Assembly (NCBI GenBank): GCA_000002435.2
Contig: CM018793.1
Reading direction: 5' to 3' (one strand)
Length of the DNA stretch: 64,000 nt
Origin: Giardia intestinalis
Taxonomy: Eukaryota
Part shown: piece after piece, positions 9,958 to 62,780 of the stretch
Layout of the letters: each line of letters opens with the position of its first letter
How positions within the stretch are numbered: position 1 is the stretch's first letter
Notes under the pieces: model-generated
Database searches by the model: none
Seen by the model: only the letters and a program-made list of their open reading frames with translations
What the model was told of the DNA's origin: nothing
Position numbers and translations under genes: made by a program

Positions 9958-10558
9958 TTACTGAACGCGATTGAGAAGCCATCGCAATTGAACAACGCTA
10001 GGCAGCGTTTTCGATCTGCAAACATACATACCCTCCCTTAGCGGTGCGCAAACAGGGGCGCCCGCGCATGCCCTGGACCGGGGCGGGGCGCAAAGGCAGG
10101 CCGCGCGAAGTCTGGCCCTGGCCGACCCGGAGCCGACGTCGTGACCCGCGCATGACGGGGCTTCTTGTGCCCACACCGCTCCTCTGGTGCGAGCTTTGCC
10201 CTTCTGTGAATGGGGGCGGGCTGGCCCGTTGCAGGCTACTTCTCTCATCGACCCCCGTGAGCCCGCCCATCTCCAAATCTCGTGGGCGCGCGTCAGTATT
10301 GTGCGTCCATTGTCTTATCCTGGTAAGGATTCTCCCATCTGCAGGTCCTCGCAGTCACTAGTGGCACGCCATTTTCGCGGTCTAGACCAACCTGACCCTT
10401 CGGAGCCAAGTGCGCTCTTGATTCGGGGACTCTTTAGTTGCCTGGGTCGACGAACAAGGGCGACGTCAAGAGAGTCACAGCGCAGCATCTACTCAGCCCC
10501 AATAATGAAACTTTGGAACACGGCTATCTCTGCTCCTGGGCCGGATGCACTGTTCTAA
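9958..10558. other. GC-rich non-coding island (not T-depleted), adjacent to the 5' end of the ankyrin pseudogene
   Basis: A strongly GC-rich run (cggggcggggcgcaaaggcaggccgcgcg...) with short overlapping ORFs in every frame and no coherent coding frame. Confidence 0.4.
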
Positions 10559-11784
10559 GCAGTTGCTAATAATGATACTGATGCTGTTTTTTCGTTAAGG
10601 AAAGCACACGCTAAACGCCGTAATGATAAGGGGTACACAGCACTTATGCTTGCGCTCCGCAAAAGCTACTACGACATTGCAATGATCCTGGCACGGCATG
10701 AACACGGAGTCCAGGATTCTCTCCAGAAGACCGCTCTTATGTACTGCATTGACCGCCAGTCACTGCGTCTCATTGATGTCCTCGGACCTTATGAGAAGGG
10801 TCTTGCCGACTTCAAAGGAAAGACTGCCCTCTATCATGCATATGAGAACAAGAACCTAAATGTTATGGAAAGGCTCTGTAAGTACGAAGCTGACCTACCA
10901 ATACCTATTCTCGAGGGATCTGTAACAGGTAGAACTCTCTTGATGTTGGCTGCGCGGGAAGGAGACTGTGCGTGATTAAAGATTCTGATACCGTACCAGG
11001 CCGGAAGACGCGATAGTATGAGCTGGTGCGCTTCACGCTACGCCATAGAGATGGGTCGAGTTGCGTGCTTGAAGCTGCTTATCACACATGAAAAGTGCCT
11101 GCTGGGGGAAGATGGTTTTACGTAGCTGATGATAGCCGTAGCAATGCGCTCTGCAGAGCCACTGGTGCAATACAAGGATAGCATCCGCCGGCGTACAAAC
11201 GATGGACGCACAGCCCTGATGATCGCTGTGTATAGCAATAACATCCCAGCAATCAAGCACTTGATCGCCAGTGAGAAGGGGATGCGGAGACCGGACGATC
11301 GAACTGCGCTCATGATTGCTGCGGAGAAGGATAGTGCAGAGGCATGCCGGCTCCTGGCGCCTCATGAGTCGGGGATACGCATATCCAGCAATATACACCT
11401 GAGCAACAAGCAAGAGATCGGAAAGCCAGTAGCACTGATGCTGGCAATCGTCGCGAAAAGCGTACGATGCCTGAAGTGGCTGGGCGAGTATGAAAAAAAG
11501 ATGACAGAGATCAAGCAGCAGATGACGTCTCTCATGATTGCAGCGCAGGTGGGGCACGTCGAGGCAGTTCAAGTTTTACGAAGTGCCGAGGCGGGCGAGC
11601 AGGACTCTTAGGCTGGACAGCGCTAATGCACGCTGCGGCGTGGGATCATCCAAACATAGTCAAGTATCTCGTCCCCTACGAGCTGGGCTTGGTTGATGAG
11701 AATGACCAATCGGCTCTCGATCTTGCGGTGAAGTACGGACAACTGTCGTGCATAAGGATCCTAGCTCCAGCTTGTGCCCCATAG
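10559..11784 (+). pseudogene. Ankyrin-repeat (Protein 21.1-type) pseudogene: no start codon, two in-frame stops and one frameshift
   Basis: A continuous ankyrin-repeat translation (…GYTALMLALRK…, …DGRTALMIAV…, …DRTALMIAAEKD…) is interrupted by an in-frame TGA at 10973-75 and a TAG near 11123. A 1-nt frameshift near 11609 (D-S-L-G-W-TALMHAA continues in the +1 frame) runs to the stop at 11782-84. There is no ATG between the upstream stop (10556-58) and the first ankyrin unit. Confidence 0.6.
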
Positions 11785-12185
11785 TTCGGAGAGGCAGCAC
11801 TACAGAAGCTAGCCGCAGGCTCTACGGCGCCGGCGGCTCTCCGACCTGAAATCCAATCTGAGATATGTCGCTATCTTGGCCTTGGTAGAGTTAAGTAGGC
11901 CACCCTTCATTTAGTACGGGGCTGTTATTAGTTAACGCCGAAGCAGAGATCCGCGCATGGAGACATCAGCTATGCTTCATATGCTCTCCGTCGACCACAT
12001 TATGCACGCGCTTGTAAGTAGGCCGGTACGTTTCAGGGTTGTGCTTTTATTTTGACAAACTTATTGACTGGAAGAATGTAAGACTCGGCTACGTTTTGGG
12101 TAAACAACAAGTACAACCACTTTAGTGGTGGCTCCCTGGAGACCACGCGTAGTAACCAACGATAGATTACAGGGAAATTATCACG

Positions 12186-14084
12186 TTGCTACTTGCTGAA
12201 AATTGCAATAAAATGTTGATGTCTATGTCAGTCGTGCTTCTTCTGGTGCGGTCTTCTACATCTGCCAGTTGTGATGTTGACTACTGCACCGAGTGCGTCC
12301 CAGACTACCCCGATAACTGCATGATATGCCAGGATGACTATAAGCTAGACGTGGAAACGGGCAAGTGCGTTCCATGCCCAAAGGGTACATGGGGTCCCAG
12401 GTGTTCCACACGCAAGTGCTGGCTTACCACACGTGTCAATTGTCTAGAATGTAGTAGCACAGACCGGTGCTGGACTTGTGAAGACGGGTACTATGTGACG
12501 TGGTATGGGGGCTGTGGTGCGTGTGCAGAAGGCACCGGAGGCTATGAGTGTCAGGACCTCATCTGTAATGGGGTTGCACTAACGAATTGTAAGACTTGTG
12601 ATACTGCAACAGAGGGGACCTGTGCAGTTTGCAAGGATTCTTACAAGCTGATTCCAGAGACCAATAAGTGCGAAGCGTGCCCCGATGGCCGAATCGGACC
12701 AGAGTGCATTTCGATGAGGTGTCTGGCCACAACCAGAGACTATTGCCTCGAGTGTCTTTCTGGGACGAATCGTTGCAGCCGGTGTTACGACGACTTTCAT
12801 CCTAATGAGCTTGGAAAGTGTGTTCAATGTCAAGGGAATACCGGTGGCTACAATTGCGAGAAGACTAAATGCAATGGAAAGATATCCGAGAATTGTGCGA
12901 CTTGCTACTCAGCTGAAGATGCAATCTTGGAGCCAGGGGCATGCAAAGTTTGCAAAGATGGGTACTACAAGGAGTCTAGTAACTCCATTACTTGTACACC
13001 GTGTCCAGACAATAGATTGAGTGATGGGATTACATGCAATGCGGTGTTGTGTTCTGGGACCCGCTACGATAACTGCCATACGTGTACAGAAGGCGAACCA
13101 ACGTGCCAGCTCTGCATTGATGGTTATGGTCCCAATGAGACGGGCTCTTGCACGCCGTGCCCTGATGGCAAAGGCGGGCCAAACTGTGTGGGGACAAAGT
13201 GCACAGCTGATCAACTGGCCCTTGTTGACGACTGTAGATTCTGTGGAGATGATGGAGCGTGCGTTCAGTGTGCTGCAGGCTTTATGCTCGATAATAAGGA
13301 GTGCGTTCCTGTCAATGGATGCCAGAGCCCCAACTGCAGAAGCTGCACCGTCACAGAGAGAACAGAGACTTGCAAGCGTTGCCAAAAGGGATATTATGTT
13401 GTTGGGGGCAGGTGTGCACGTTGTGTCGGGAACTGCCTCGACTGTAAGAGCGCAAGCATCTGTGTTGCGTGCGAGGACGGTTATACGTTGACGGTCGACG
13501 TTTGCGTATTGAATTCCCCAGACGTAGACGTGGACTCCTGCAGCATCTCAAACTGCCTGGTGTGCCTGGCCAACAACCGAGACGTTTGTGCCACGTGTTC
13601 TAGCGGCTATCTATGGAATGCAAATGAAAAGGCCTGTGTTGTAGCTTGCCCAGATACTAACTGTATTGATTGCAATCAATCCACTGGTGAGTGCAGCGCC
13701 TGTGGCGTTGGATATGGAATGCAGGGGGCTCTCTGCTATCCTTGTACAATTAGTGATTGCTCTAGTTGCAGCTTTCGCACAGATTCTACATCAGGAGAGA
13801 GCACCGAAGTATGCGTACGGTGCTCTTCTGGAGAACTGACCACTGATGGGCAATGTAAGGAGATTGTGCGAATGAGTAAGAAGACGATTTTCGCTTCATC
13901 CGTTGGGATCGTTGTCCTAGTTCTCCTAGTGTGTATTGGTGTTGGACTCTTCTTCGTTTTTCGACGTAAGCCAGCTCAACAACTCGATGTTACTTCAGAA
14001 ACTCGTCTTATGAACTCTCAGAAAAATATGGAACCGACCTCTGTTGACACCAACCCCGAATGTGTGGAGTATGAAACTGACTAG
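12186..14084 (+). CDS. High-cysteine membrane protein (HCMP, VSP-like CxxC/EGF-like repeats, type I TM)
   Basis: Signal peptide MSMSVVLLLVRSSTSAS; dozens of CxxC motifs; a single C-terminal TM segment (IVVLVLLVCIGVGLFFVF) plus a cytoplasmic tail that does not end in CRGKA; AGTAAAT poly(A) signal about 50 nt 3' of the stop. Confidence 0.85.
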   Translation: MLLAENCNKMLMSMSVVLLLVRSSTSASCDVDYCTECVPDYPDNCMICQDDYKLDVETGKCVPCPKGTWGPRCSTRKCWLTTRVNCLECSSTDRCWTCEDGYYVTWYGGCGACAEGTGGYECQDLICNGVALTNCKTCDTATEGTCAVCKDSYKLIPETNKCEACPDGRIGPECISMRCLATTRDYCLECLSGTNRCSRCYDDFHPNELGKCVQCQGNTGGYNCEKTKCNGKISENCATCYSAEDAILEPGACKVCKDGYYKESSNSITCTPCPDNRLSDGITCNAVLCSGTRYDNCHTCTEGEPTCQLCIDGYGPNETGSCTPCPDGKGGPNCVGTKCTADQLALVDDCRFCGDDGACVQCAAGFMLDNKECVPVNGCQSPNCRSCTVTERTETCKRCQKGYYVVGGRCARCVGNCLDCKSASICVACEDGYTLTVDVCVLNSPDVDVDSCSISNCLVCLANNRDVCATCSSGYLWNANEKACVVACPDTNCIDCNQSTGECSACGVGYGMQGALCYPCTISDCSSCSFRTDSTSGESTEVCVRCSSGELTTDGQCKEIVRMSKKTIFASSVGIVVLVLLVCIGVGLFFVFRRKPAQQLDVTSETRLMNSQKNMEPTSVDTNPECVEYETD

Positions 14085-14278
14085 TTATTTATCATAGCAT
14101 AATCTGCATTGATAATCTCGCAGTATGTGCTAGTAAATGTTTTCTTGAATCAAGAAGATGCAGCGCCATTCTAGGTAGGTGTGTCTCTTGCTCGTTCATC
14201 AACGGGGATCCAAATCTAGAGTCTGAAATTTGAAAATCAGATGTCGTCCACTCCTGGTAGAAGAGCCTTGTGCTTTCT

Positions 14279-14448
14279 CCAAGGCAATAGAGGGCCTGAA
14301 ACTGGTGATGGATGCGCCGATCACTCGCCGCACTAGGCCAACGCTGGCCAGGATCATCGCCCGCTAGTCGAGATGGACCCACACGTGACCTATGTGAATC
14401 CCTCGGCAAGAGATGGGAGCCCTGGAGTGCTTGGCTGACAGAGGCGGA
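14279..14448 (+). repeat. Dispersed repeat, copy 1 (core 31-mer ggacccacacgtgacctatgtgaatccctcg)
   Basis: Aligns with 55155-55291: ccaaggcaa…gtgatgg…atcactcgccg…gaga(t/c)ggacccacacgtgacctatgtgaatccctcg…tgcttggctgacagaggcgga. Copy 1 carries an extra roughly 33-nt insertion. Confidence 0.65.
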
Positions 14449-15120
14449 TTGATCCTGACCGTACCGAAGAGTGGTGGTCTGGGCCACCTGCCTGGGGTCT
14501 GCTGCAGCAGCTGGCAGTGCCTGACACCCTCGAGTAGACGGGCGCCGGTTGTAGAGAGAGACGACCTCGATGAACTGGTCCTGATCGCTTCTGATGCTTC
14601 GGATGACACCCTTCAGAGAGGTGGCCCTGGACCGACGCCTCGACAGACCGAATCATTCCCCCAGGTGTGCTGTGCAGTGCAGATGGACCAGCCCACACGT
14701 CACTGAGCCAAACACGCTGCACAAGGTGAGCGTCGACACGGTCTCGTGCTGGGTGACGGAGCACCTGCAAGAGCGCACCGCAATCCATGAATAGGAGGGC
14801 CATACTTCTCCCCCGACACAACGCATGGGAGCTGTCCACTGGCATCCACGAACGCGTACTATGACTCCAAGATAGAGGTGCATGGGGAGCGCACCCTTGA
14901 TAATGGAACAGATAGTGCCCTCCACGAGGAGACGAAGAGGCACCCCGAGGAACGGGGTGGACACCCGGGGTCGTGGGGCGCGATCTTCGTCACGGAAGAC
15001 CAGAGCCCTGGATTCTGTGGGGGCCAGATCGCAGTGACCGACGCAAGGCCCGAGACAGCAGGTGCCCACTCAAGCGTCAGACAGTAGTTGGCCAAGGGAA
15101 GGGAGGAATCCTCAAAAAGC
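14449..15120. other. GC-rich, T-depleted (plus-strand) non-coding island 3' of HCMP-1
   Basis: No coherent ORF and overlapping short ORFs on both strands. The plus strand is rich in A/C/G and visibly poor in T. Confidence 0.4.
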
Positions 15121-15175
15121 ACCGCGAAGAACAGTAGCAGCTCCCGGAGGGATGAACATAAAGTTCTTCTTTTCT

Positions 15176-17791
15176 TTAGGATTGGATGGCATCCGAATTT
15201 CGGATTTTGGACTTTGCCCAAGAGTAAGTGAGAAGCCCATCTGCCCAGAGCAATGGTGGTTTGCAGGGATATTTACTCAGACAACAACTAGCAAGTTGAC
15301 TTTGGTAAAAAAGAGTATGTCTTCTGTTATTTTCTGCTGCCAACATGAGAGCAGTCTCACCATCATCATTCTTCTTGTCTTTATCAGAAAGGTTCTTCTT
15401 AACTCTTTCAGTATCGCCGGCGAAGGAAGCGCACATGACTGGGGTCTAGGATGAGGCCCCGTGTTTGTGGAGAAGCAGAGCTATGCTTGTGTGCTTGTTC
15501 TTAAGATCATGCATGAACACCGTGTTTCCAGCCTTGTCCTTCATTCCATTATGAGCTGGTATAAGCAGCTCTACTAGCTTTGCGCCCCCCTAATAACAGC
15601 CCGCATAAGTGCTGTCATACCATCATCATCTGTTGGGTCCTCATAAGATATAAGCATCTCAGCAACTTCTAGATGTCCATTTTTAAGAGAATAGTACAGA
15701 GCATTGTGATTTTTCCTATCCTTCAGTTCCTTCTGGCTTGGTATCAGCAGTCTCACAGAGTTTATGTCACCTTTCATAGCCACTTTCATAAGTGAAGTAA
15801 CACCATTGTCATCTAGCATTTTTGTTAGAAAGACCATCTGTATGAAAGGAGCATCAAAATTCTCATTGTTGCAAACTGTGTCCCAAATTTTCCTATAGAA
15901 TTCAGCAGAATCAGCAAGGGTGAGGAACAAGCGTTCACTCGAAGCAAGTTGATTGATGACTTCGGCAACAAGTGTCTGTATGTCTCTGCGGATACCTTCT
16001 ATTTGTTGTTTGTAAAGGTCCGATTCATCCTGGTTACCATTCTTGTCCTCACAGGACGTGTCCCGAATGAACCAGAAGCTGAAGTCGATGTAACGACGGA
16101 AGCTATTACGCAATTTGGAAGGGACTGAGTTCTCATATATTCCTTTGATATCATTGTTAAGTGCTTCCTTCATGTGATCTTCTCCCTTTCCATTACACCG
16201 ATGGATATCGATGAACAGCCTAAGTTTGTGATATATATTTTGACGTCGTTGCGGGGCTGGAAGTAGACTGAGAAGATCGATTTGAGGAGATTGGCGCAGA
16301 ATCCTTCTACACGACTAACATCTGTCTGCAAAATATGAACAATAAGAATGTCGGCAATGGCAGATGCGAAAGCGCCTATACAGCGTTCAATATTCTGATC
16401 ATTTTCTGTGGCACGCTCTTTGCTCTCGGACCCCTTACAATAGAGTAGTAGTATGGTCGGATAGGATCCTGCACCTGGGATGAATCCCGCTGTAAGCCCC
16501 TTGGTCGTCTTTTGTCAGTCGTCATCTTCATCCAACGCCTTGAGGCATGTTCCAAAGAGGTCGTTGAAGAGGGTTGACCTGCTATATGACTGGTCAAGAA
16601 TAACGACACGCGCATAATGAAGGGAGTCAGAGCTGGGATGCTCCGCGCAAGAGCCATATACTTCTTGCTGTATGCGCCCCCGTCTGTAACAAAAGGAGCC
16701 TCTATTCTTCAATGAATAGGGTCGATACCACTGTCTTCCTCAGTAAGGTGTTCTTCAGCAGCTTCAACACTTGTACCACTGAAAGGATATACAAGCGGGG
16801 GCTTAGACATGTTCATGGACGTAGAAGAAGTTAAAGAAACCGTAACATTTGTCGGAGTGGAGCGTTCTGCAAGATGTTCGGATTCCTTATGTTGATCCTC
16901 CGCTTTAATTGCAGGGCTATTGAGTGTTTGGAAAAAGCCAATGATCTTTCTGGTCGTGGGCTGCTCTGCCGGGTCCAGGATAATATCTTCTCGATGACAG
17001 TTCTTACAAATTCATCTGTGATGGCGCCCAAATCAGGCCTCCACTCATTGTCAAAGACTGCTTTCGCATCCTCTGGCTCCCAAAGTGTGAGAAGCTCGGC
17101 AAGCTCATACATGACGACTCCGGAGGCTCAGATATCCGAAGCGGTGCTCGTCTCGTATGAAGGTCTCGGGGGCTATGTATGCCGACGTTCCTGCAAAGGT
17201 GCCTCCACTATGCAGAGAGTCCTTGCAGAGCCCAAAGTCTGCGAGCACGATGCGCTAGCCGTCCCTATTCATCAGAGTTGGCGGGCCCGAGGTCCCCGTA
17301 GACGAGGCTGTAAGATAAGCTCCCGTCTTCGGCCACCTTGCGAGGGTTGTGGAGGTAGGCGAGGGCGTCAGCCATCTGCTCTAGGAGAGGGAACATCAGC
17401 CCCTTGGGACTGGGTTTACGAGCTGCCCTGTAGGCAGTGATAAATTTCTGGAGATCCCCGTGGTGGCGGTCCATGATGACAAAGATGGGTCGTTGCTCCT
17501 GATCACCTGGTGATACTTGATGACGCCGGGCTGGGAGAGTCTCGTAACAGTTTTCAGTTCGCACTCTGTGAGCTTCTTCTCACTACGCTTGATCATCCTC
17601 TCCTTCACAGAAAGGCCTGGACACCCATCGATGGCGCGAACGGCACCGAAGCCCCCTTTACCTAGCAGCTCGCCTTCGCGCTGATACAGCCCTTCGGGAC
17701 TGAACATGGGGATGCTATCGAGGCCACTGCCAGCGCTCTCTGCAGCACGAGTGGGACTTTCACTGACCATGTCATGCGCAATTAGATTCAC
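15176..17791 (-). pseudogene. Decayed NEK-like kinase + coiled-coil + ankyrin-repeat gene, fragmented by multiple frameshifts
   Basis: Collinear minus-strand ORF fragments in different frames: an N-lobe (LGKGGFGAV…VIKYHQVI; 17396-17791), a middle part (VIMDRHHGDLQKFITAYR; 17265-17564), a C-lobe (16831-17112), coiled-coil and ankyrin units (NGVTSLMKVAMKGDINSVRLLIP; 15574-16173) and more ankyrin (DGETALMLAAENN; 15176-15436). The architecture and motifs parallel the 51781-53335 gene. Confidence 0.55.
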
Positions 17792-18489
17792 GCTTTCTAT
17801 TACGCCAAACTAACAATTACTGTACTGGGTCCAATTTTCGCAGAATCTGTGGGTAGATAACAATCATGGATTCGGTGAGCCTCAGCCTTGCTACCTCCTG
17901 GTCGAACGCTTTTCCTCGCGCATCATTACCCAATCCCAATCAGCACAGAAGCCTCTGAAGTCGTGGGATTGCAACCAAAGCGCCCTTAGTGAGACAGATC
18001 TTACGAATTGACCCCTTCTGTCCATCAATCTGAGTGCACGGAGCCATCTTGTGCCAGTGTGAGCTCCTGTGCAGCAAAATAGGTACTGTGCTGCTGGAGC
18101 CTCGCCTCACGCGGTCCAGAAGTCTCACGAGTAAATTCTCGCTCAATTCCTGGCCAATCCGGAGACGAGGGCTGGTTGTAGACAACATACTAGAGGGTCC
18201 CCTCTATTAGTGTATCTAAAACCTGGCACCTTCCCCGGTCGCTCTGTGGGTGTGTGCTCAGACTATGTGTGGGCGTCGCTCAGCCTTGGATTCAGCTTAC
18301 TCACCAGCACATGTAGTCTATGAGTAGTGCCTCGCTTCATGGTCTTTCTTCATGGTGGATGATAGATATGGGTTGCTACTATCTTTTTAACAATGCTTTC
18401 ACTTGTCTCGACGACAGCAGCTATTAGGTCTCTGGCTCGCTATAAGGGGCATCGTTATTTGTTCTCGGTCGCTGCTTCCCCTGTGAGTA

Positions 18490-18700
18490 AGCAGATCTTC
18501 TCTCGCCACCTCTCCAGCTCCACTGGCTGGGCCCCTCGATGTCCGTCTGGCTGTGGTTCTGGGTCAGCGCTCTACAGTCGCGGTCACCTGGATCTCATGG
18601 CGGGCCGGCTGGTGGGTGAGGCAGGGTTGGTGGGGCGGTGAGGCCGGAGGGGCTCCTGGTGGGGACCGGGTGGGGCGGTGTTCGTATGTGCCCTGGATCC
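18490..18700 (+). repeat. Left arm of an imperfect inverted repeat of about 210 bp
   Basis: Nts 18490-18700 align to the reverse complement of 20281-20500 at about 85-90% identity. One example is a 52/53 match in gggccggctggtgggtgaggc(a/g)gggttggtggggcggtgaggccggagggg; another is cactggctgggcccctcg(a/g)tgtccgtc(t/c)ggctgtg. Left has a 12-nt insertion. Confidence 0.7.
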
Positions 18701-20280
18701 GGTGGACTGGGGTGATCATAGCTGTGGTGACTGGGGGCTATCCATCTGTGACTCACCCCTCTGTGGGCTCGTGGTCTGTGAGTGCCTCCACCCAGACAAC
18801 GCCTCAGGAGCCGTGCACACCGGGACAGAGAGGATGACCAAGGGAGTCAGGCAGCCCTACCATGAGGGTGCACAGCAGCCAGCCTGAGCTGTAGGGTCTG
18901 CTCGAGCGATGTAGTGGCAGACGACTCCCTCTGACAGCAGCCCTGGTGACTGCACTGGTCTGCTCTCGAGACTGAGTGACAGTGCACACAGATGGACCTG
19001 AGTGCAGGAGGACCATCCACACACGGACAGACTGTGTGGACCCAGAGAGGACTGGAGTCTGCTCGGGACACGCTGACTGTGCCCCGTACGAGAGCCCCAG
19101 GCAACCACCCGAGCACCCGAGAGGCAGTGACAGACACGGGCACCAGAGATCCCCGGCCAGACACATTACTGTGCTCATCCACAGGGGCATCAGAGGGCCA
19201 GGTGAAGTCACCCTCACAACCAAGGGCCTGATAGGAAGCCAGAGGACTCAAACACTACAGCACAGCAGGCCCAAGGGAGGCACACTCCAGGCAGGTGAGC
19301 AGTGGCAGAGCCCTGACAGCTGCCAGCCCCCCATGACACCCAGGCAGGCACGACTCGCCGAAGACTCCGCTGGCCTCCATCGATGACCCAGGGGGCAGCA
19401 GCCAGAGGAGTGAGGAGGCCTTCGGATGACACAAGAGGCCCGGCTGTCCAGCAGGCGATGGAGCACAGGTGGTCTCTGAGTACCACCCAGGCACAGGACT
19501 GACCATCAGAGTGATGCCCGATCACAGAGACGACCACGAGCACCCTCCACTGCACTCTGAGGGGCTGTCAATCATCCCACTGCCTCTCATAGCAGACCTC
19601 CTTGGGGGCAGTGCAGTGGGTGACCCGGCTCGTGCAGGAGGGTGCACACCCCTCAGTATAGGGTGCCCCGGCTCTCCCCGAGGGGCCATCAGAGCCACGA
19701 GGATGGGTCAAGGTCCTGATAGATCACATCGGGAGCTCCCGAGGGCACAGCAGGTGATGTTGGGTGACCCTCAGCGTACTCCTCTCTGATGGTAGAGCAT
19801 CCTGAGACCAAGGAGGACTCACCCCTGCCTATGAACAACACACAGCGCTCCACAACAAGGATCTACCAGGAGCAGCACAGCTGGCCACGGGGACAGTGCA
19901 GCCACCAGTGCCCCACCGTGCCAGTCTTCTGGGCCATCACACTAGAGGCATGACAGAACCCCATCCCATCCACAGGGTTGTCCATACCCCTGCTGGCCCG
20001 AGGTGAACTACCGTCGAGGCACTGGACAGGGCATGCCAGGAGGCTCAGCAGACCCGCACAGAGCATCAAGATGGGCTGCGATGGTCTGCCTCACCCCTCA
20101 CGCACCAGCCAGACAGAGCAGCAGTACTACTTGAGACATGCAGGGGCCAAGGGAGGCACTCAGTCAAGGGACACGACACGATCGTCGGTGCCTCTGTCTC
20201 GGGAGTGCAACGAAGGCTGGAGATCAGACACAACCACCTTGGCAAACAGAGTGGGGATCACCCACCACCTCAATGGTCCA

Positions 20281-20500
20281 CCGGACCCAGGGGCACATAG
20301 AGACACCGCCCCCGGTCCCCTCCGGCCTCACCGCCCCACCAACCCCGCCTCACCCACCAGCCGGCCCACTGTGAGACCTAGGTGACTGGACTGTGGGAGC
20401 GTTGCCCGGGACACAGCCGGACGGACACCGAGGGGCCCAGCCAGTGAGAGAGCCTGGTGGCAGCCCCCGACAGACGGGGCATCTAAAAAAGACAGCGACC
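20281..20500 (-). repeat. Right arm of the inverted repeat (reverse complement of 18490-18700)
   Basis: Same alignment as the left arm. The peptide TGWAPRCPSGC is encoded on opposite strands at both arms (ORFs 18393-18641 + and 20350-20592 -), confirming the inverted symmetry. Confidence 0.7.
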
Positions 20501-20798
20501 CGAGCTTCACCCACCAGGACGGCAGACCAAGGAGAGGCGCCACGGGTAGAGCAGAGAGTCTGCGAAAAGGCCAGGGCCCTGGACGCGCACACTCAAATCG
20601 AGTACATGCCCGCGAAGTGGCAGAGGGGCGCACCAAGCTCTGGATGCGCTAATAGAGAGGAATCCCTAGCATGTTATCCACAACCAGCCCTCGTCTCCAG
20701 ACGGCCAGGACATGGGTGAGGCTTACCCGTGGGACGTCTGGACGCACCAGCAGCCGGGGCCTAGTAGCATAATCTACATAATCCATATACAGCAACGC

Positions 20799-20817
20799 GT
20801 TTACTACCTAAGTACAT
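20799..20817 (-). promoter_or_regulatory. VSP extended polyadenylation signal (ACTTAGGTAGTAAAC on the coding strand)
   Basis: The reverse complement of 20799-20817 is tgtACTTAGGTAGTAAAC, directly after the TAG stop. It contains the AGTRAAY motif, and the same block follows the mini-VSP. Confidence 0.6.
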
Positions 20818-50765: not shown

Positions 50766-51194
50766 CTACGCCTTCCCGCGGCAGAGGAACCACCAGCAGA
50801 GGAAGCCCACAAGCCCTCCTATAACGATGACAGCAGCCACAACAATGCCTGCAATAGCGCCAGTAGAAAGGCCGTTACTCTTGTTGGTGCCAGAAGACAC
50901 GCACGCGGTCTTCCCATCGTTCAGGCTGAATCCCTGGTCGCACACACACACCTTCTGGTCGTTGGCCGCGGAGTTCAGCGGGCAGCCCACGGCGCAGCTT
51001 CTTTTATCGAGTTGCACGTTCTGGCCAGAGACCTTGCAGTCCAGGCACGTCTGGTCGGGTTCTGCCCCGGCGCACGTCTTGCACCCTGCCGTGTCCAACC
51101 CTGATGCGCAGTTTGTGTTGGAAGCCACGCACGCGGTCTTCCCGCTGTCCTTTGCCAGCACGGTTGCACAAACTAGGAGAAATCCTACCAACAT
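50766..51194 (-). CDS. Miniature VSP (142 aa): signal peptide, a few CxxC motifs, canonical TM plus CRGKA tail
   Basis: Ends …STGAIAGIVVAAVIVIGGLVGFLCWWFLCRGKA*. The likely start is the Met at 51192-51194 (MLVGFLLVCATVLA signal peptide); the longer 209-aa ORF merely adds a non-VSP-like N-terminal extension. Confidence 0.75.
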   Translation of the reverse strand: MLVGFLLVCATVLAKDSGKTACVASNTNCASGLDTAGCKTCAGAEPDQTCLDCKVSGQNVQLDKRSCAVGCPLNSAANDQKVCVCDQGFSLNDGKTACVSSGTNKSNGLSTGAIAGIVVAAVIVIGGLVGFLCWWFLCRGKA

Positions 51195-51982: not shown

Positions 51983-53335
51983 GTGGAGGAGATTCAGCTC
52001 GATGGTTTGGATCAGCACGGTGTGGATGCTATTAAGCGTAGGCTGACCGCTCTTCTAGGCACCCTTCACCCAGACGTTCTCAAATACCACCAGGTGCTTA
52101 CAGACGGCAACGCGATCCTTGTTGTCACAGACCGCTGCTGTGGAGACCTCCGGCAGTTCATCACCGACTACAGGGACATTCACGAACCTATTCTCAGCAA
52201 GCTGGTCCTCTCCCTTCTGGGGCAGCTGGCTGGCGCCCTTGCCCACCTCCACGGGCTCAGCAGAGGTGCCCACAGCGGCTTGCCCTCTAGCGTTGTCCTC
52301 GAGCCCGACAACATCATGTTCGCTGGGGACAGGCGACGTGTCGTCCTTGGAGACTTCGGGTTCTGCAAGGGCATATTGAGTGGAGCTGCGAAGGCCGGCG
52401 ACCCCGCGTACATGGCCCCCGAGACACTCCTCTGCGGTGACATGACCCAAGCATCCGACGTCTGGAGCCTCGGGGCCATCGCATACGAGCTCGCCACCCT
52501 GAGGAAGCCGGACTTCCTAGAAGGTAAAGACCCAAAAGACGTCTTCGTTGACGGATGGAGGCCAGACCTGAGCGGTGTCGCAGACGACCTCGCAAGGAGC
52601 GTCCTTGAAGGAATGCTCGTCCTCGATCCTGCCGAGAGGCCGACAGCCAGAAGGCTTGTCCGTCTACTTCTGAGGCTTGACATCTCTGCTGATGAACAGG
52701 AGGCCCAAGACACAAGGCTAAAGGAGGCGCGCGCAGCCTTTGCAGACGCCTTGAATAGAGCCAACAACGAAACAGTAGCTCTTAGGAAGGACCCTCCTGA
52801 TCGAGCTACAAGAATGGACATCATCAGGGAGCAGTGTGCTATTGCCGCCAAGCTATTCAGGGAAATACAGGAGATTAAGGCAGAGATGGGCGAAACAGAC
52901 GAGCCAGACGAAAGGGAGGATTCAGAAGAGCCAGAGAAGAAGCACCTAATAGAGGAGGACGACTCCACCGACCTCATGAGGGCAGTCGATAGAAACGACG
53001 TGGAGGCCGTGAAGGCCCTCATACCACTCCAGGGGGGCACGAAGATGAAGGGATGCGCACTTGTAGGTGACTGGAAAATATACGAGGGAACTGCCCTGAT
53101 GAGAGCGGCGGTATATGGATACACAGAGATCGTGGGGCTGCTCGTGGAGAAAGAGAAGGGACTGAAAGATAGCAACGGATGGACGGCCCTCATGTGGGCT
53201 GTGAAGAACGATCACACAGATTGTGTCAGGCTCCTCATGAGAGAGAAGGACTTGAAGGGTTATAATGGAGGGACTGCCCTTGAAATGGCTAAGTTATGGA
53301 GAAACCATGAGATAGTCGCCCTCCTCTCAGAGTAA
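51983..53335 (+). CDS. NEK-like pseudokinase (lacks Gly-loop and HRD) + coiled coil + C-terminal ankyrin repeats
   Basis: Kinase C-lobe motifs are degenerate (LEPDNIMF instead of HRDLKPxN; DFGF; PAYMAPE), followed by ankyrin units (GTALMRAAVYGYTEIVGLL; NGWTALMWAVKNDHTDCVRLL). The beginning of the N-lobe (VFSPKKLHRRLGN…) is encoded in another frame at 51781-51982, so the N-lobe is frameshifted. Confidence 0.7.
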   Translation: MEEIQLDGLDQHGVDAIKRRLTALLGTLHPDVLKYHQVLTDGNAILVVTDRCCGDLRQFITDYRDIHEPILSKLVLSLLGQLAGALAHLHGLSRGAHSGLPSSVVLEPDNIMFAGDRRRVVLGDFGFCKGILSGAAKAGDPAYMAPETLLCGDMTQASDVWSLGAIAYELATLRKPDFLEGKDPKDVFVDGWRPDLSGVADDLARSVLEGMLVLDPAERPTARRLVRLLLRLDISADEQEAQDTRLKEARAAFADALNRANNETVALRKDPPDRATRMDIIREQCAIAAKLFREIQEIKAEMGETDEPDEREDSEEPEKKHLIEEDDSTDLMRAVDRNDVEAVKALIPLQGGTKMKGCALVGDWKIYEGTALMRAAVYGYTEIVGLLVEKEKGLKDSNGWTALMWAVKNDHTDCVRLLMREKDLKGYNGGTALEMAKLWRNHEIVALLSE

Positions 53336-53586
53336 ACGCCTTAAAGCCAATGGATTGAAGCGCCAGTGCCACATTTTACTGACCACCGAGAGACGGAAAA
53401 GTGCCGCCGCTCCCCTATAAAGCAGTCTAAGTAGCGCACCACAAGAACTAACCATATAGAGCGAACGTATCTCCACGGCTTGCCTGCTTCTGAGGACGCT
53501 TGGTGGCTCGTGGGAGCTGCTCAGACAACCTTATTTTTGCTTTGATGCATTGAGCAAGATGAGGGTGTAATAGTAGTTGACAACAA

Positions 53587-55154
53587 ATGAAGGCAGGTCT
53601 CTCGTTCGTTCACCGCCCGGCATCTGAGACAAGAACTCGAGCTCGGGGGTCGCCCACCTCTAGAGAAGAACCTTGTGCTTCCTCCCTAGGGGGCCGTTGT
53701 TGCCCTGGGGTGCGTTCCTCTGGCCAACCTGGGCCAGCTGCTCCCCCGTATCCGATGGGCACCCGCTACCCCAGGGCCACGCAGCTCACCTTCCGCCTCA
53801 TCGAAGCTGGTCTGCCACCTGCCGGCCGAGCAATTCGTACCCCGTACAAGTCCTCCCCGCGGCAAGTGGACCCCGCCCGTTCGCCGCCCCAAGCCCAGAG
53901 TCCGGTATTCGGGTCAGAACGTCGGCCGAGTCCGGGGGAGAAGAGCCAGGCCGTGCACGCCAGCTCCGGCATCAACCGGAACGCCCTCCAGACCAGCCGA
54001 GGAACTAAGGCGCAATCTCTGCCGCCCAGTAGCACGACCGAGGCCGCGGTGTTGGGCGGACGACAGCACCAGAGCGCCCAGCTCGTCCAGGGCACTGCGA
54101 AGCGCCGCCCCTCGCAGGGGACACGCTCCGACGCCAGGAGAACGAGGGCCGCGGGCACTCATGAGCGCGCTTCCGGTGCTCCAGGTCCGGCCCGGGCCTC
54201 AGGAGCCCACTGAGACGGGGCGGTGGCACCGGGTGAACGTTGAACTAGTAGGAGCGGAAGAGCACGTGCCCGTCCTGCAGGAAAACCCTCCGCGATGAGG
54301 CCGTCCAGACGTATGCAGCACAGACACCGGATGTAGGGCGCTGCTGAGTGGAGTAATAGGAATAGAGAAGGACACCCCCCTCAGCACCCGTCGTGCGAAC
54401 GTGCTCAGGGGAGGGTACCTAACACCCCGCAGAGCCCCAGGTGAGAGCCGAGGAGACGTGCCTCGCTCACACAGCGGGGAAGCGGAGGAGCGGCATTCAC
54501 CACCCCACTGCCCGGCCTGCAGCCTCTGCCTCGCCTCGAGGGGGAGCTGCACCCTGACAGCGCCACCGACGACCAGCACCTTGCTATCCAGAGGGCCGGA
54601 TCAGGACGGCCTGGCCCCTGAGAGACAAGAGCCCCCTCAGCCATCGGAGAGCACGGACGGCCAGTCCACGGGGCTCGAAGTCTCCGGGCCTGCGCTGGCG
54701 AGTCCATCCGGGTGCAGGCCTTCAACGAGATCCTCGGCGCGATCCATAGGATGGGATGCGTGCTCTGTACGGTTCCGCCTGGCCCTTCCCCAAGAATGGG
54801 ACAGGACAAGCACGATCAACGGACGATCATGATTCGCTCCACAACACAGTTCCAAGGAGCTGCGTCGAGGCCTTCCTCCGGCTGCGACACGCTGCACTCC
54901 TGGACTCGGTCCCTCGGGGCCCTGCGCATGCCCCCATACTGCGTGGTACAGAACCTGCTCACCAGGAACTGAGGAGATACCTCGCTCACTGCCTTGCCGA
55001 CGACACATCCATCTTCCATAGTAGCAACAGTGATGCGACGGGGATAGCCACAGAGGCGACAGGCCTAGGAAATGCTATGGCTCGACGATCAGCACTGGGT
55101 GTAGGAGTACGGAGGGACAGGAGGCCTCTCTCCTGGCCGGGCTCGAAGGAGCCC
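53587..55154. other. GC-rich, T-depleted (plus-strand) non-coding island 3' of HCMP-2
   Basis: 1.5 kb with overlapping ORFs of 60-210 aa in all six frames and no coherent coding frame. The plus strand is strongly depleted in T. Confidence 0.4.
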
Positions 55155-55291
55155 CCAAGGCAACGGAGAGCCAAAGCTAGTGATGGCACTAATCACTCGC
55201 CGTGCTGGTTGAGACGGACCCACACGTGACCTATGTGAATCCCTCGACGAGCAAGTTGGGGCCCCTGGGGTGCTTGGCTGACAGAGGCGGA
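55155..55291 (+). repeat. Dispersed repeat, copy 2 (same family as 14279-14448)
   Basis: Shares the exact 31-mer ggacccacacgtgacctatgtgaatccctcg and the flanking blocks ccaaggcaa…atcactcgccg… and …tgcttggctgacagaggcgga with copy 1. Confidence 0.65.
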
Positions 55292-55594
55292 CGAGTCCTG
55301 GCTGCCCACAACCAGCCGGCGGAAGGGGAGGTCCTAGAAGGCCCTGCGAGAAGCACAGCAGCTCCCAAGAGGATAGGGCAAACCTTCTTCTTCTCCCACG
55401 GGGATCTAGGACATCCGGCTCTCGGGTCTCGGACGGTGAGCGGGAGGTCCACTCAGAGCGATGGCTCGCATGGAGAGATTTACTTAGATAGCAGCCTTAG
55501 TGATACTCAGTTAGCCATTTAAAATATCAAACAAAATACCACATGGTGAAAGCTAATAAAGGACACAGCTGTAGTTTCTAGCGCAGTTACTATT

Positions 55595-58069
55595 TTAATG
55601 GGTGCTTGCAACGATAGACTGCTTGTAGAGCAGTGGAACTCCGGCCTTCTTTCGGAAAACGAAAAACCAAACCAGCACAGCCGCCACACCGCCGACGACG
55701 AGGACCACGCCGATGGCGATGCCAGAGATAGCACTAGACGAGAGGGCGGACTTTTTAGAGGTGTTATCGTACTCCAGACATATGGGCTTGACTGCGCCCT
55801 CTGGAACCACGCAGAGGCTGCACTTGGAGATCGCCTTGTGACACGCCTTGCACGTGCTCTCGGAGAAGTAGTACCCGGCCAGGCAGTCGAAGCATGCCTC
55901 CCCATGAGGACAGGTGGCGCAGCCCTTGGAGCACGCCTTGCACGCCCCCTTCTCCAGGTAGAACCCGCTGTTGCAGGCGCTACAGGCTCCACCGCTACAC
56001 ATTGCACAGTTCGTCGGGCATGTAAGGAGCGTTCCGTTGTACGTTATCCCGTACCCGGCCACGGTGCTGTCACACCAGCCGTCGCTCGCCTTCGTGCAGA
56101 CAGTCTTCCCGGGGAGGAGCGTGGAGGTGTAGCACCCCCCGTTGAGCCTGAAGGAGTTCGAGCTGCAAACAACACACCTACCGGCGGCGACATTCGCGCA
56201 CGCGATGCCAGCCGCCCGCGAGCTGGAGGAGGTGCACGCCCCGTTGTTGGGGTACTCCGTGCTCTTGACGCAGCGCGAGCAGTAGCTGGTCCCGCCCACC
56301 GTGAGCCCGCACTCTGCACAGCTGCTGTCCTGCACGCACTGCGGGACGCACGATCCCTTGGCACCGTCGCTGTACTGCAGCCGCCTCTTGGCAGGGCAGG
56401 AGGTGCAGTCGCCGGATGCCGGTCCGCTGCACGTGGCGCACTCAGAGCTGCACGGCTTGCATCCTCCCGAGCCCTCGACGTAGAGCCCGTCCCTGCATGC
56501 CTTGCACTTGGATTCCGACTCGCAGACTGCGCAGTTGCCGAGCGTGCACGCCACGCACCTCGAGACGCCGCCCACGGTGGCCTTGTAGTACCCGGCGGAG
56601 CCCAGGCAGTCCTTCACGCACAGACCGTGGGGGTCGAGGCTGTTGCCATCGGTACACTTTGTGCACACGTCTCTGTCCTCGCACGTGTCGCAGTTGGGGT
56701 CCTTGCACTTGGTCGCCACGCACTGACTATCGGAGAGTGTGTAGCCATACTTGCACTTCTTACAGCTCGATTCATCACACTCAGCGCAGTTCTCCACCGC
56801 GCACCCGACACACTTCCCGTCCTTCAGATAGGACTCGTCATCGCATGCGCAGCTGTGGACCGAGGATGAGGACTCCTGCACGCCCTTCTGCCCCTTGGGA
56901 CAGCTGGCCAGGCAGCTCCTCTTATCCAGGCTCAGGTAGAGGTCGCGGCACTCCAGACACTGAAGACTACTGTCCTTCATCTCACACCTTTGACATCCCT
57001 CTATTCCCCCGTTGGCTGAGTCCCCGCAGCGCCAGCATCCGTTGTTCTTGGTGAACACCTCTTTGGTTGAGCTGTTACATGCGGTACAAACGTTTTCTTT
57101 CACTGCTTGACAAATCTGAGATTCTATTTGATCCGAAACATCTTTAAATAAGTAGCATCCACCATAAAACAAGAAATATTGCCTGTTGCCCTCATTCTTA
57201 CAAGATGTACACCTTCCCGATTCAGGATCCTTTACGCAAATGTCTTCAAACCCAGTTATTGATAGACAGAGGCCATTCAGAGGAATCTCTGATGGGTTGG
57301 TGCAGCGAGAGCATAGGGATTGCCCAGACATCTCCATGATATTCTCCGGTAGACAGATGCTGTTGCTTATTGGAGTATCTCTGGCATAACAAGCATAAAA
57401 GCTCCAAATGTGTGTTTCGGGACAGTATCCACAAAGACCATTGCTTGCACCTTCAGTGATGTGCTTACATCGATAATCATACGAGCATGTATTTTTGTGG
57501 TCTGAACATTGGTAGCAATTTGGGACCACTTCTTGCTTTATCCTTGAAGAGTTACAAACTAGACACCCATATATCCCACTATATCCACCAAAGCCCACAG
57601 TGTCTCCGCATGAGATGCATCGCTCGGGAGTGCTAGTGCTGGGATTGGTGAAGGCTACAGATGGCTGCGTTTCGTTTGTTTTTGCACATTCTACACAGAT
57701 CCCCTTTTCTGCTCGTTCACAAATGAACTTTGTCCAGTCTTGAGATAAATTATAGCACCCACCATAAAAAACAAAGTGGTCATCGCCGCACTTAGTGCAC
57801 CATCCGCCTGTTTGAGATTTAGCACAGCCAGACCGAGTAGCCTTGGAATCTCCAGCCAGAACACACTTGCCATCAATCGGTACGTATCCAGACTCGCATT
57901 CTGTACAAAGAAATCGCGAGGTTACACCCAATATGCAACTATTTGGAAGGCAATTTGGTATTTTACCTTCGCAGAAGTATCCAAACCCATTGCGATATAT
58001 AGGTGCCTCCTCAGAGAAGAACTCTGCCAGAAGACAAACCAATAGCAGAACTGATAAAGATCGTGACAT
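55595..58069 (-). CDS. High-cysteine membrane protein (HCMP), 824 aa
   Basis: Signal peptide MSRSLSVLLLVCLLAEF, more than 90 Cys in CxxC/CxC arrays, one C-terminal TM (IGVVLVVGGVAAVLVWFFVF) and a short tail without CRGKA. The GC-rich coding strand produces long spurious antisense ORFs. Confidence 0.85.
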   Translation of the reverse strand: MSRSLSVLLLVCLLAEFFSEEAPIYRNGFGYFCEGKIPNCLPNSCILGVTSRFLCTECESGYVPIDGKCVLAGDSKATRSGCAKSQTGGWCTKCGDDHFVFYGGCYNLSQDWTKFICERAEKGICVECAKTNETQPSVAFTNPSTSTPERCISCGDTVGFGGYSGIYGCLVCNSSRIKQEVVPNCYQCSDHKNTCSYDYRCKHITEGASNGLCGYCPETHIWSFYACYARDTPISNSICLPENIMEMSGQSLCSRCTNPSEIPLNGLCLSITGFEDICVKDPESGRCTSCKNEGNRQYFLFYGGCYLFKDVSDQIESQICQAVKENVCTACNSSTKEVFTKNNGCWRCGDSANGGIEGCQRCEMKDSSLQCLECRDLYLSLDKRSCLASCPKGQKGVQESSSSVHSCACDDESYLKDGKCVGCAVENCAECDESSCKKCKYGYTLSDSQCVATKCKDPNCDTCEDRDVCTKCTDGNSLDPHGLCVKDCLGSAGYYKATVGGVSRCVACTLGNCAVCESESKCKACRDGLYVEGSGGCKPCSSECATCSGPASGDCTSCPAKRRLQYSDGAKGSCVPQCVQDSSCAECGLTVGGTSYCSRCVKSTEYPNNGACTSSSSRAAGIACANVAAGRCVVCSSNSFRLNGGCYTSTLLPGKTVCTKASDGWCDSTVAGYGITYNGTLLTCPTNCAMCSGGACSACNSGFYLEKGACKACSKGCATCPHGEACFDCLAGYYFSESTCKACHKAISKCSLCVVPEGAVKPICLEYDNTSKKSALSSSAISGIAIGVVLVVGGVAAVLVWFFVFRKKAGVPLLYKQSIVASTH

Positions 58070-62762: not shown

Positions 62763-62780
62763 ACCCCTTGTTGAAAAATA

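What the first reader, a model, noticed from the sequence alone, without database searches (positions are those of the whole stretch)
14279..14448. Dispersed repeat family with an exact 31-mer core (containing CACGTG), copy 1, 3' of HCMP-1
14279-14448 and 55155-55291 share ccaaggcaa…atcactcgccg…, then an identical 31-mer ggacccacacgtgacctatgtgaatccctcg, and then …tgcttggctgacagaggcgga. Copy 1 carries an extra roughly 33-nt insertion. Each copy abuts a GC-rich, T-depleted island and lies about 200-300 bp from the 3' end of a different high-cysteine membrane protein gene. A degenerate echo of the core (cccacacgtcactgag) recurs at about 14690. Conservation of a perfect 31-mer inside otherwise diverged flanks suggests a functional site, for example a protein-binding or RNA motif, or recent gene conversion.
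Basis: seen in the sequence. Interest (0 to 1): 0.65.

Follow-up and report, generated by a model that had tools for sequence, protein, structure and literature searches.

The report
Dead retrotransposon relic beside Giardia HCMP genes
The repeated 31-mer is real, but it is only the tail end of a decayed, non-functional retrotransposon (most likely the known dead Giardia family GilD) that lies scattered next to surface-protein genes, so it is ordinary rather than a new regulatory site.

Summary
The window is Giardia intestinalis WB chromosome 5. In detail: an exact 31-mer sits at 14375-14405 and 55216-55246, inside about 140-170 nt of 85% similar sequence, 195 and 304 nt from the 3' ends of two HCMP genes.

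The unit is not self-standing. At locus 2 it is the last ~170 nt of a 1.73-kb GC-rich, T-poor element (53589-55320). That element recurs at about 80% identity in an unrelated gene neighbourhood (L009), on WB chromosome 1 (GL50803_00116745), and in assemblage E.

The element is a dead reverse-transcriptase gene. Its pseudo-ORF matches a protein (P0068) that passes Pfam RVT_1 and keeps YADD, where the window has the decayed CLADD. It carries stops and frameshifts and shows no codon-position bias.

Copy 1 is an internally deleted relic: 5' segment A (14166-14280) is joined directly to 3' segment B.

The 31-mer is not specially conserved. Each of three other copies or orthologues carries a different substitution in it, and exact runs of 25-50 nt are common between paralogues.

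The mosaic WB/DH/L009 identity fits gene conversion. Published GilD traits match: dead, deletion-ridden, next to VSP genes. Low interest.

The parts
14166..14280 (+). Segment A at locus 1: the 5'-terminal piece of the element, joined directly to B.
   Evidence: It is homologous to 53589-53685: 65% over 98 nt with E 4e-5 against WB, and 69% with E 1e-8 against the DH orthologue. The alignment is A5. nhmmer matches element-profile positions 3-97, E 0.005.
14279..14477 (+). Segment B at locus 1 (the finding's copy 1): the 3'-terminal piece of the element. It contains the 31-mer at 14375-14405 and a locus-specific 31-nt insert at about 14331-14361.
   Evidence: nhmmer matches element-profile positions 1615-1774, E 1e-29. 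The 3' homology reaches 14477 when compared with L009.
53589..55320 (+). Long copy of the element at locus 2: a dead reverse-transcriptase (GilD-like) relic. This is the 'GC-rich T-depleted island' together with the finding's copy 2.
   Evidence: Window 53786-55305 aligns to L009 9535-11111 at 80% over 1634 nt, in a different gene neighbourhood. P15 carries collinear pieces. A WB chromosome 1 paralogue, P0055, exists. There is no codon-position bias, and indels are not multiples of 3.
53589..53685 (+). Segment A at locus 2, at the 5' end of the long copy. The annotated hypothetical ORF GL50803_0060084 (53587-54213) starts here.
54712..55115 (+). The recognisable reverse-transcriptase remnant. 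QAFNEI lies at about 54715-54732 (motif-A region). CLADD at 54990-55004 is the decayed YADD box (within CLADDTSIF, 54990-55016). RRSALGVGV ending at 55115 corresponds to RRYGLTINI.
   Evidence: tblastn of P0068 to 54849-55115 gives 55% identity, E 5e-22, and P0063 matches 54712-54828. P0068 matches RVT_1 with E 6.7e-10 and 39.4 bits against a cutoff of 29.6. phmmer of ORF 54756-55229 to P0068 gives E 5.8e-16.
55155..55320 (+). Segment B at locus 2 (the finding's copy 2), with the 31-mer at 55216-55246. It lies about 40 nt 3' of the last recognisable RT motif.
   Evidence: ORFs from other copies (P0063, P0062, P0066) read from the RT remnant into B.
14361..14414 (.). A 54-nt imperfect palindrome (hairpin-capable) centred on the 31-mer. 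The same feature is at 55202-55255.
   Evidence: Fold z-scores range from -0.7 to -4.2 across copies and strands, for a sub-window chosen after seeing the structure. The whole unit gives z of -0.15 to -0.9. One compensatory pair is seen in a terminal helix.
14675..14762 (+). The 'echo': a possible very degenerate second B-like stretch. It is not statistically supported.
   Evidence: The local alignment scores 16, against a shuffle mean of 14 +/- 2.4. It lies in a patch that is 13% diverged between isolates.
12213..14084 (+). Neighbour gene HCMP-1 (High cysteine membrane protein Group 6, KAE8304639.1, identical to KAE8304613.1).
55595..58069 (-). Neighbour gene HCMP-2 (High cysteine membrane protein VSP-like, KAE8304656.1), convergent with the element.
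51983..53335 (+). Neighbour gene upstream of the long copy: a NEK kinase with ankyrin repeats.

Best explanation
The two copies are the 3'-terminal roughly 170-200 nt (segment B) of a dead, non-coding relic of a non-LTR retrotransposon. It is most likely the described 'dead' Giardia family GilD.

Locus 2 keeps a 1.73-kb relic (53589-55320) that still shows reverse-transcriptase ancestry. Locus 1 keeps only the two ends, A and B, after an internal deletion of about 1.47 kb. The A|B junction shows a 2-4 nt YCC microhomology.

Relics of this family sit in the gene-poor, VSP/HCMP/NEK/ankyrin-rich variable regions of Giardia chromosomes. They decay by transition-biased substitution and by indels, and they appear to exchange patches by ectopic gene conversion. 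The exact 31-mer is a by-product of that history, not a selected site.

Shown here: the homology, the RT ancestry, the lack of coding constraint, copies in multiple loci, and the absence of special conservation of the 31-mer.

Inferred: the deletion mechanism, gene conversion as the cause of the mosaicism, and the specific GilD identity.
For: Species and location: HCMP-2 and HCMP-1 are exact matches to Giardia WB chromosome 5 proteins.

The unit is longer than reported:
- L009, with unrelated neighbours (Mak16, kinases, ubiquitin-L40e), aligns to window 53786-55305 at 80% over 1634 nt, including B at 88.7%.
- nhmmer finds collinear pieces in P15 (L007), and finds only A and B at locus 1.
- A WB chromosome 1 paralogue exists (P0055).
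- Nine 50%-identity ORF clusters in public data match the 3' third of the element, and four of them read into B.

RT ancestry:
- ORF 54756-55229 matches P0068 with E 5.8e-16.
- P0068 matches RVT_1 at 39.4 bits, above the 29.6 cutoff, and has an intact AYADDILIF.
- The window carries CLADDTSIF at the aligned position.

The element is dead:
- There are 10-22 stops in every frame.
- Substitutions are even over codon positions: 62/58/50 and 18/14/19.
- Indel lengths are 1, 10, 59, 14, 28, 53 and 44.
- Pfam finds nothing directly.

Internal deletion: A abuts B at locus 1 but lies 1.47 kb upstream of B at locus 2.

The 31-mer is not constrained:
- Three different substitutions occur in three other copies.
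- Long exact runs are common between paralogues.

Mosaic identity is seen.

Literature:
- RT remnants lie between VSP pairs in WB (PMC7000408).
- RT and endonuclease remnants occur at synteny breaks (PMC3091692).
Against: - No GilD reference sequence could be compared, so the family name rests on matching properties and not on sequence identity.
- The RT link is indirect. It goes through P0068, whose organism of origin could not be looked up. The window's own six-frame translations do not reach Pfam RVT_1.
- The element ends only about 200 nt after the last RT motif at three loci. It has no C-terminal domain, no 3' UTR and no poly(A). All the copies seen may therefore descend from one already truncated relic by segmental duplication rather than by retrotransposition.
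- No target-site duplications were seen.
- Between WB and DH, the 31-mer has 1 difference where the flanking rate predicts about 6.7 (Poisson P about 0.01, my own calculation). This leaves a little room for constraint.
- The mosaic pattern could partly reflect chimeric draft or metagenome assemblies.
Confidence: 0.8

Rival explanations
1. The element is a relic of a different, undescribed retroelement family rather than GilD. The mechanism is the same (a dead RT relic); only the family label differs.
For: No GilD sequence was available for comparison. The phmmer search returned no GilM/GilT-like intact RT, only fragmentary ORFs and one RVT_1 fragment of unknown source.
Against: From my memory of the Arkhipova and Morrison 2001 abstract (paper not held), Giardia has only three RT families, two of them telomeric tandem arrays with intact ORFs. 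The properties found here match what is published for GilD: dead, deletion-ridden, and next to VSPs in gene-poor regions (PMC2861651).
Confidence: 0.12
2. The element is a segmental-duplication relic of a decayed host gene family (hypothetical proteins such as GL50803_0060084 and GL50803_00116745), and the RT resemblance is spurious.
For: The WB annotation calls ORFs in the element hypothetical proteins. Pfam finds no domain in the window's own translations. According to PMC7000408, 6.9% of the WB genome is duplicated. HCMP-1 itself is duplicated.
Against: The match to P0068 is strong: E 5.8e-16 in a library of 1.84 billion proteins, 55-62% identity over 81-93 aa. It falls inside the stretch of P0068 that aligns to RVT_1, including the YADD box. 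The ORFs show no coding constraint.
Confidence: 0.05
3. The 31-mer and its 54-nt hairpin are an exapted functional site kept by selection inside otherwise decaying copies. Candidates are a small-RNA precursor, a protein-binding palindrome around CACGTG, or a recombination signal.
For: - A hairpin centred on the 31-mer is predicted in every copy, with z as low as -4.2 for copy 2.
- One-sided changes in the outer stem mostly keep pairing on the + strand, 7 of 8.
- B is 81-85% similar between loci 1 and 2, while A is only 65-69%.
- WB and DH divergence is lower in the 31-mer than in its flanks.
Against: - Three of three other copies carry a substitution in the 31-mer. One of them destroys CACGTG.
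- Other blocks of the element are equally conserved between paralogues, at 90-92%.
- Whole-unit fold z-scores are -0.15 to -0.9.
- The hairpin window was chosen after seeing the fold.
- With ts:tv of about 4:1, wobble-preserving changes on one strand are expected.
- There is no Rfam match.
Confidence: 0.04

Closest known systems
GilD, the 'dead' non-LTR retrotransposon family of Giardia lamblia (Arkhipova and Morrison 2001, as described in PMC2861651)
   Same: The sequence is derived from a reverse transcriptase. All copies seen are dead, with stops, frameshifts and substitutions. There is an internal deletion with junction microhomology. The location is gene-poor sequence next to VSP and cysteine-rich surface-protein genes, at internal chromosomal sites.
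   Different: Identity to GilD reference sequence could not be tested. The copies here stop about 200 nt after the last RT motif and have no recognisable C-terminal domain or long 3' UTR.
GilM and GilT, the telomere-associated non-LTR retrotransposons of Giardia
   Same: They are non-LTR RT-encoding elements of the same genome.
   Different: GilM is 5,474 bp, encodes an RT and is multi-copy (PMC7000408). The Giardia elements are described as head-to-tail arrays between subtelomere and telomere (PMC5537684). The element here is single, internal, 1.73 kb or less, and has no intact ORF. No intact RT appeared among the phmmer hits.
RT remnants and short segmental duplications in VSP/HCMP-rich non-syntenic regions of Giardia (PMC7000408, PMC3091692)
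   Same: The genomic setting is the same. Synteny with P15 breaks about 80 nt after HCMP-1. VSP, HCMP, NEK and ankyrin genes are the neighbours. HCMP-1 is duplicated.
   Different: Those papers list gene categories. They do not describe this particular 3' fragment or its internally deleted form.

Membership tests
GilD (dead Giardia non-LTR retrotransposon) | The sequence derives from a non-LTR reverse transcriptase. | tested here: met
   ORF 54756-55229 matches P0068 with E 5.8e-16. P0068 matches RVT_1 at 39.4 bits against a 29.6 cutoff, with YADD intact. The aligned window sequence has a decayed CLADD. The link is indirect: the window's own translations do not reach RVT_1.
GilD (dead Giardia non-LTR retrotransposon) | Copies are dead, with stop codons, frameshifts and substitutions. 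| tested here: met
   Stops occur in all six frames. There is no codon-position bias, and indels are not multiples of 3. Paralogues need different frames.
GilD (dead Giardia non-LTR retrotransposon) | Copies are disrupted by internal, microhomology-mediated deletions (PMC2861651). | tested here: inconclusive
   Locus 1 joins A directly to B and lacks the 1.47 kb between them. The junction shares only a 2-4 nt YCC microhomology. This is consistent with the feature but too short to prove the mechanism.
GilD (dead Giardia non-LTR retrotransposon) | Copies lie in gene-poor regions next to VSP genes (PMC2861651). | tested here: met
   Both window copies lie 195-304 nt from HCMP genes, in ORF-poor stretches. 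The L009 copy lies about 75 nt from sequence homologous to the 3' flank of a VSP-like gene, with the VSP coding end at about 11520. The P15 copy lies roughly 420 nt from an HCMP start.
GilD (dead Giardia non-LTR retrotransposon) | Nucleotide identity to GilD reference or consensus sequence. | not testable with these tools
   No Giardia genome or repeat library can be searched by DNA here. The metagenome, viral and GTDB scans returned nothing, and the original paper is not held.
GilM/GilT telomeric retrotransposons | An intact RT ORF of about 5.5-6 kb, in head-to-tail arrays next to telomeres. | tested here: not met
   There are no tandem copies in the window, no intact ORF, and housekeeping genes flank the region.
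Structured non-coding RNA gene (Rfam families, tRNA, snoRNA) | A match to a covariance model, or fold stability and covariation beyond background. | tested here: not met
   No Rfam hit at the gathering score or at E<=10 over the copies. No tRNA was found. Fold z-scores are -0.15 to -0.9. Only 1-2 compensatory pairs appear among 4-5 related sequences.
Non-autonomous DNA transposon (MITE-like) | Terminal inverted repeats and target-site duplications. | tested here: not met
   Inspection of the boundaries at three loci shows no TSD. The only inverted match is an 8-nt CYCCAAGG/CCYTGGRG pair, which is internal to B.

The most novel reading that the evidence does not exclude
The 54-nt hairpin around the 31-mer, within segment B of the dead retrotransposon, has been exapted. 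It could be a source of small RNAs, or a hairpin or palindrome that promotes ectopic recombination or gene conversion in the flanks of VSP/HCMP genes. That would explain why B survives at locus 1 when the rest of the element was deleted, and why B is more similar between loci than A.
Probability: 0.04. Interest if true: 0.6.

Novelty: already known. Interest (0 to 1): 0.15.

Why it matters
The result matters mainly as a clean-up.

- It explains the repeat and one of the two 'GC-rich, T-depleted islands' as a single known kind of object: a dead retrotransposon relic in the variable, surface-antigen-rich parts of Giardia chromosomes.
- It flags the annotated 'hypothetical proteins' GL50803_0060084 and GL50803_00116745, and the DH 'Histone H3' entries ESU35099.1 and ESU38466.1, as probably spurious ORFs on dead RT sequence.
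- The mosaic identity between isolates and paralogues is a small, usable example of ectopic exchange in these regions.

Tried and rejected
- **Public DNA scans for the core.** Two metagenome patterns, one viral and one GTDB scan found nothing. These collections seem to hold no Giardia at this locus.
- **Full-text search for the sequence.** No paper contains it.
- **Six-frame protein search.** Six-frame translations of both copies were concatenated into one query. Nothing scored E<=10, and one capped search was wasted.
- **WB chromosome look-ups.** Exact-protein look-ups of WB genes found no contig. The WB assembly is not indexed, so a genome-wide copy count was impossible.
- **Rfam, tRNA and snoRNA reading.** There were no hits. 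A C/D-box reading (GUGAUGG ... CUGA) was rejected because the C box lacks its final GA.
- **Degenerate VSP, HCMP or NEK pseudogene.** Six-frame tblastn of both islands against the window found nothing.
- **Direct Pfam detection.** Scans of island ORFs and of all six frames gave no hit. RT ancestry appeared only through the exhaustive phmmer search.
- **P0068 against solved structures.** Only chance-level hits came back.
- **HCMP-2 homologues P0003 (P15) and P0008.** Both loci proved non-syntenic. P0008 (L008) gave no hit to the repeat or the islands. L007 (P0003) happened to hold a P15 copy of the element.
- **The echo at about 14690.** It is not significant.

Full report
**1. Where the window comes from**

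The 824-aa ORF at 55595-58069(-) is identical to KAE8304656.1/XP_001705828.1, 'High cysteine membrane protein VSP-like', of Giardia intestinalis WB (ATCC 50803). It lies on the 4,018,654-bp contig, inferred to be chromosome 5.

The 623-aa ORF at 12213-14084(+) is identical to 'High cysteine membrane protein Group 6'. That protein carries two accessions on the same chromosome, KAE8304639.1 and KAE8304613.1. HCMP-1 is therefore itself part of a segmental duplication.

Pfam confirms the neighbours: VSP-family proteins, a NEK kinase with ankyrin repeats, and ankyrin fragments.

**2.

- The 31-mer occurs exactly twice, at 14375-14405 and 55216-55246, both on the + strand. None is expected by chance, and no further hits appear with up to 3 mismatches.
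- Self-BLAST gives 86% identity over 100 nt, E 4e-25, with no other copy in the window.
- The gapped alignment adds the upstream CCAAGGCAA...ATCACTCGCCG block, a 31-nt extra stretch in copy 1, and an exact 22-mer near the 3' end.
- The copies lie 195 nt and 304 nt from the HCMP stop codons.
- Copy 1 has the same orientation as HCMP-1, but copy 2 is convergent with HCMP-2.
- The 'echo' near 14690 is visible but not significant. Shuffles score as well in 65 of 300 and 21 of 300 trials.

**3. Direct tests of the functional readings**

- Rfam gave no match at gathering thresholds for the window, and none at E<=10 around either copy. No tRNA was found.
- Folding the whole units on either strand gave z-scores of -0.15 to -0.9.
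- A 54-nt imperfect palindrome centred on the 31-mer folds with z from -0.7 to -4.2, depending on copy and strand. I chose that sub-window after seeing the fold, so these values are inflated.
- Covariation is minimal: one or two compensatory pairs among four or five closely related sequences.

**4. Orthologues show the 31-mer is not protected**

- The DH (assemblage A2) orthologue of locus 2 (L001) has T>C inside the 31-mer.
- Over the 137 nt of copy 2, DH is only 82.5% identical to WB. The next 150 nt are about 97% identical.
- An ENA assemblage-A contig orthologous to locus 1 (L005) is 99.4% identical over copy 1. Its single difference turns CACGTG into TACGTG.
- A third locus (L009) has A>G in the 31-mer.
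- The assemblage E (P15) orthologue of HCMP-1 loses synteny about 80 nt after the stop and has no repeat in the remaining 2 kb.
- A 94% identical paralogue of HCMP-2 in DH has no repeat downstream.

**5. The unit is part of something longer**

A 98-nt segment directly left of copy 1 (segment A, about 14166-14280) is homologous to 53589-53685. That is 1.47 kb upstream of copy 2. The match has E 4e-5 against WB and E 1e-8 against the DH version.

The ORF that DH annotates across the locus-2 island found homologues:
- the WB annotation GL50803_0060084, which is window 53587-54213;
- a WB chromosome 1 hypothetical protein, GL50803_00116745;
- several ENA ORFs.

One ENA ORF sits on a 58.8-kb contig (L009) with unrelated neighbours: Mak16, kinases, ubiquitin-L40e and an ankyrin protein. 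There, L009 9535-11111 aligns to window 53786-55305 at 80% over 1634 nt. This includes segment B at 88.7%.

L009 and copy 1 also share another 25 nt at the 3' side (...TGATCCTG...ACCGAAGAGTGGTGG, to 14477). Copy 2 has lost this stretch.

An nhmmer profile of the long copies gave three results:
- It finds collinear pieces in P15 contig L007, cut off by the contig end before B.
- At locus 1 it finds only A and B.
- It finds no further copies in the window.

The full unit at locus 2 is therefore 53589-55320 (1.73 kb). Its composition is GC 65% and T 14.6%. This is the 'GC-rich island' that copy 2 abuts. The GC-rich stretch to the right of copy 1 (14478-15060) is not homologous to it.

**6. The element does not code**

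- All six frames carry many stops.
- Differences between copies are even over codon positions: 62/58/50 for DH against L009, and 18/14/19 for DH against WB.
- Indel lengths are 1, 10, 3, 59, 14, 28, 53 and 44.
- Pfam finds nothing in the ORFs or in the six frames.
- Substitutions are transition-biased, 100:24 and 129:44.

**7. What the element was**

I ran an exhaustive phmmer search of the window ORF 54756-55229 against 1.84 billion representative proteins. It returned nine hits.

Eight are fragmentary ORFs from other copies. Four of these (P0062, P0063, P0066, P0067) read into B. P0063 reads right through it...DGPTRDPCESLDKRWGPWGAWLTEAD.

The ninth is P0068, with E 5.8e-16 and 62% identity.
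- It passes Pfam RVT_1 at 39.4 bits against a 29.6 cutoff, E 6.7e-10.
- It keeps ITNAFNSI, AYADDILIF and GLTINIDK.
- At the aligned positions the window has QAFNEI (about 54715-54732), CLADDTSIF (54990-55016) and RRSALGVGV (ending at 55115).

The island is therefore a decayed reverse-transcriptase gene. Segment B starts about 40 nt after its last recognisable motif.

**8. Comparison with what is known**

- Xu et al. (PMC7000408) report RT remnants between VSP pairs. They also report that 6.9% of the WB genome is duplicated, often in short stretches with multigene-family members.
- The P15 paper (PMC3091692) finds RT and endonuclease remnants, VSPs, HCMPs, NEKs and protein 21.1 at synteny breaks.

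All the properties found here fit GilD: RT ancestry, dead copies, an internal deletion (A|B at locus 1, with YCC microhomology), and a position next to cysteine-rich surface-protein genes in ORF-poor sequence.

I could not compare with a GilD reference sequence, so the name is an inference. From memory of the Arkhipova and Morrison 2001 abstract, GilD is the only dead family and no other RT families exist in WB. That paper is not held.

**9. Why a perfect 31-mer**

- Between the WB long copy and the L009 paralogue there are 16 exact runs of 25-50 nt.
- In 137 nt at 80-85% identity, a run of 31 or more has a probability of 0.02-0.10.
- Identity among WB, DH and L009 is mosaic. Blocks where WB is closer to the paralogue than to its own orthologue alternate with the reverse. 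One example is 55136-55236, at 92% against 84%.
- The WB-DH identity of the element (77-87%, with many gaps) is far below that of neighbouring housekeeping ORFs, at 99.1-99.3%.

This pattern fits patchy ectopic gene conversion among relics. Chimeric draft or metagenome assemblies are a caveat.

B is more similar between loci 1 and 2 (about 85%) than A is (65-69%). This also fits a later conversion of B.

A residual hint of constraint remains. The 31-mer has 1 WB-DH difference where about 6.7 would be expected at the flank rate. I weigh this as weak, given the three independent substitutions seen elsewhere.

**10. Verdict**

The interpretation as a functional core is not supported.

The finding is the terminal fragment of a dead retrotransposon relic, probably GilD. 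One copy is long and one is internally deleted, and both sit in a variable region rich in surface-antigen genes. This is an already known kind of object, and the interest is low.

Noticed in passing
window 14641-15100: Between WB and the ENA isolate contig L005, this patch is about 13% diverged (45 transitions, 15 transversions, 13 gap columns in 471). The adjacent 14085-14640 is 0.9% diverged. It is a sharp mosaic patch in the GC-rich stretch to the right of copy 1. The cause is unknown; conversion from an unseen paralogue is one possibility.
   Followed up: partly
window 22729-29760: Seven kb have no ORF of 170 aa or more, which is unusual for the compact Giardia genome. The stretch 14085-20817 is similar, with only short ankyrin and kinase fragments. 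These are probably pseudogene-rich, gene-poor tracts.
   Followed up: no
window 18114-18652 and 20317-20947; L009 11185-11654: Inverted repeats at 18158-18652 and 20317-20701 are 70-94% complementary. The 3' flank of the VSP-like gene at 20818-22728(-) recurs beside the L009 element at 77%, and inverted at 18271-18114 at 85%. VSP 3'-flank sequence is therefore itself a low-copy repeat.
   Followed up: partly
L001 13584-14630(-), which corresponds to window ~53587-54640(+): DH GenBank entries ESU35099.1 (348 aa) and ESU38466.1 are named 'Histone H3'. However, they are ORFs on the dead RT relic and have no Pfam histone match. The names look spurious. WB GL50803_0060084 and GL50803_00116745 are likewise probably not real genes.
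   Followed up: partly
window 10063-14084 (at least); L003: The HCMP-1 protein has two identical accessions on WB chromosome 5, KAE8304613.1 and KAE8304639.1. A DH contig matches window 10063-13499 at 98.7% but has a different upstream context (TmcA, TruD). This points to a segmental duplication whose second copy may carry a third B unit, but that could not be checked.
   Followed up: partly
window 51546-60701 vs L001: WB-DH identity falls from 99.1-99.3% in housekeeping ORFs (60702-63818) to 95.4% in HCMP-2, 95.9% in its upstream intergenic region and 91.2% in the NEK kinase. The kinase-ankyrin gene is also split into two ORFs in DH. The whole zone is fast-evolving.
   Followed up: partly
window 50766-51395(-): This is a short 209-aa VSP-family ORF ending in CRGKA, with a GTG start as listed and only the C-terminal third of the VSP profile. 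It is probably a VSP pseudogene or fragment.
   Followed up: no
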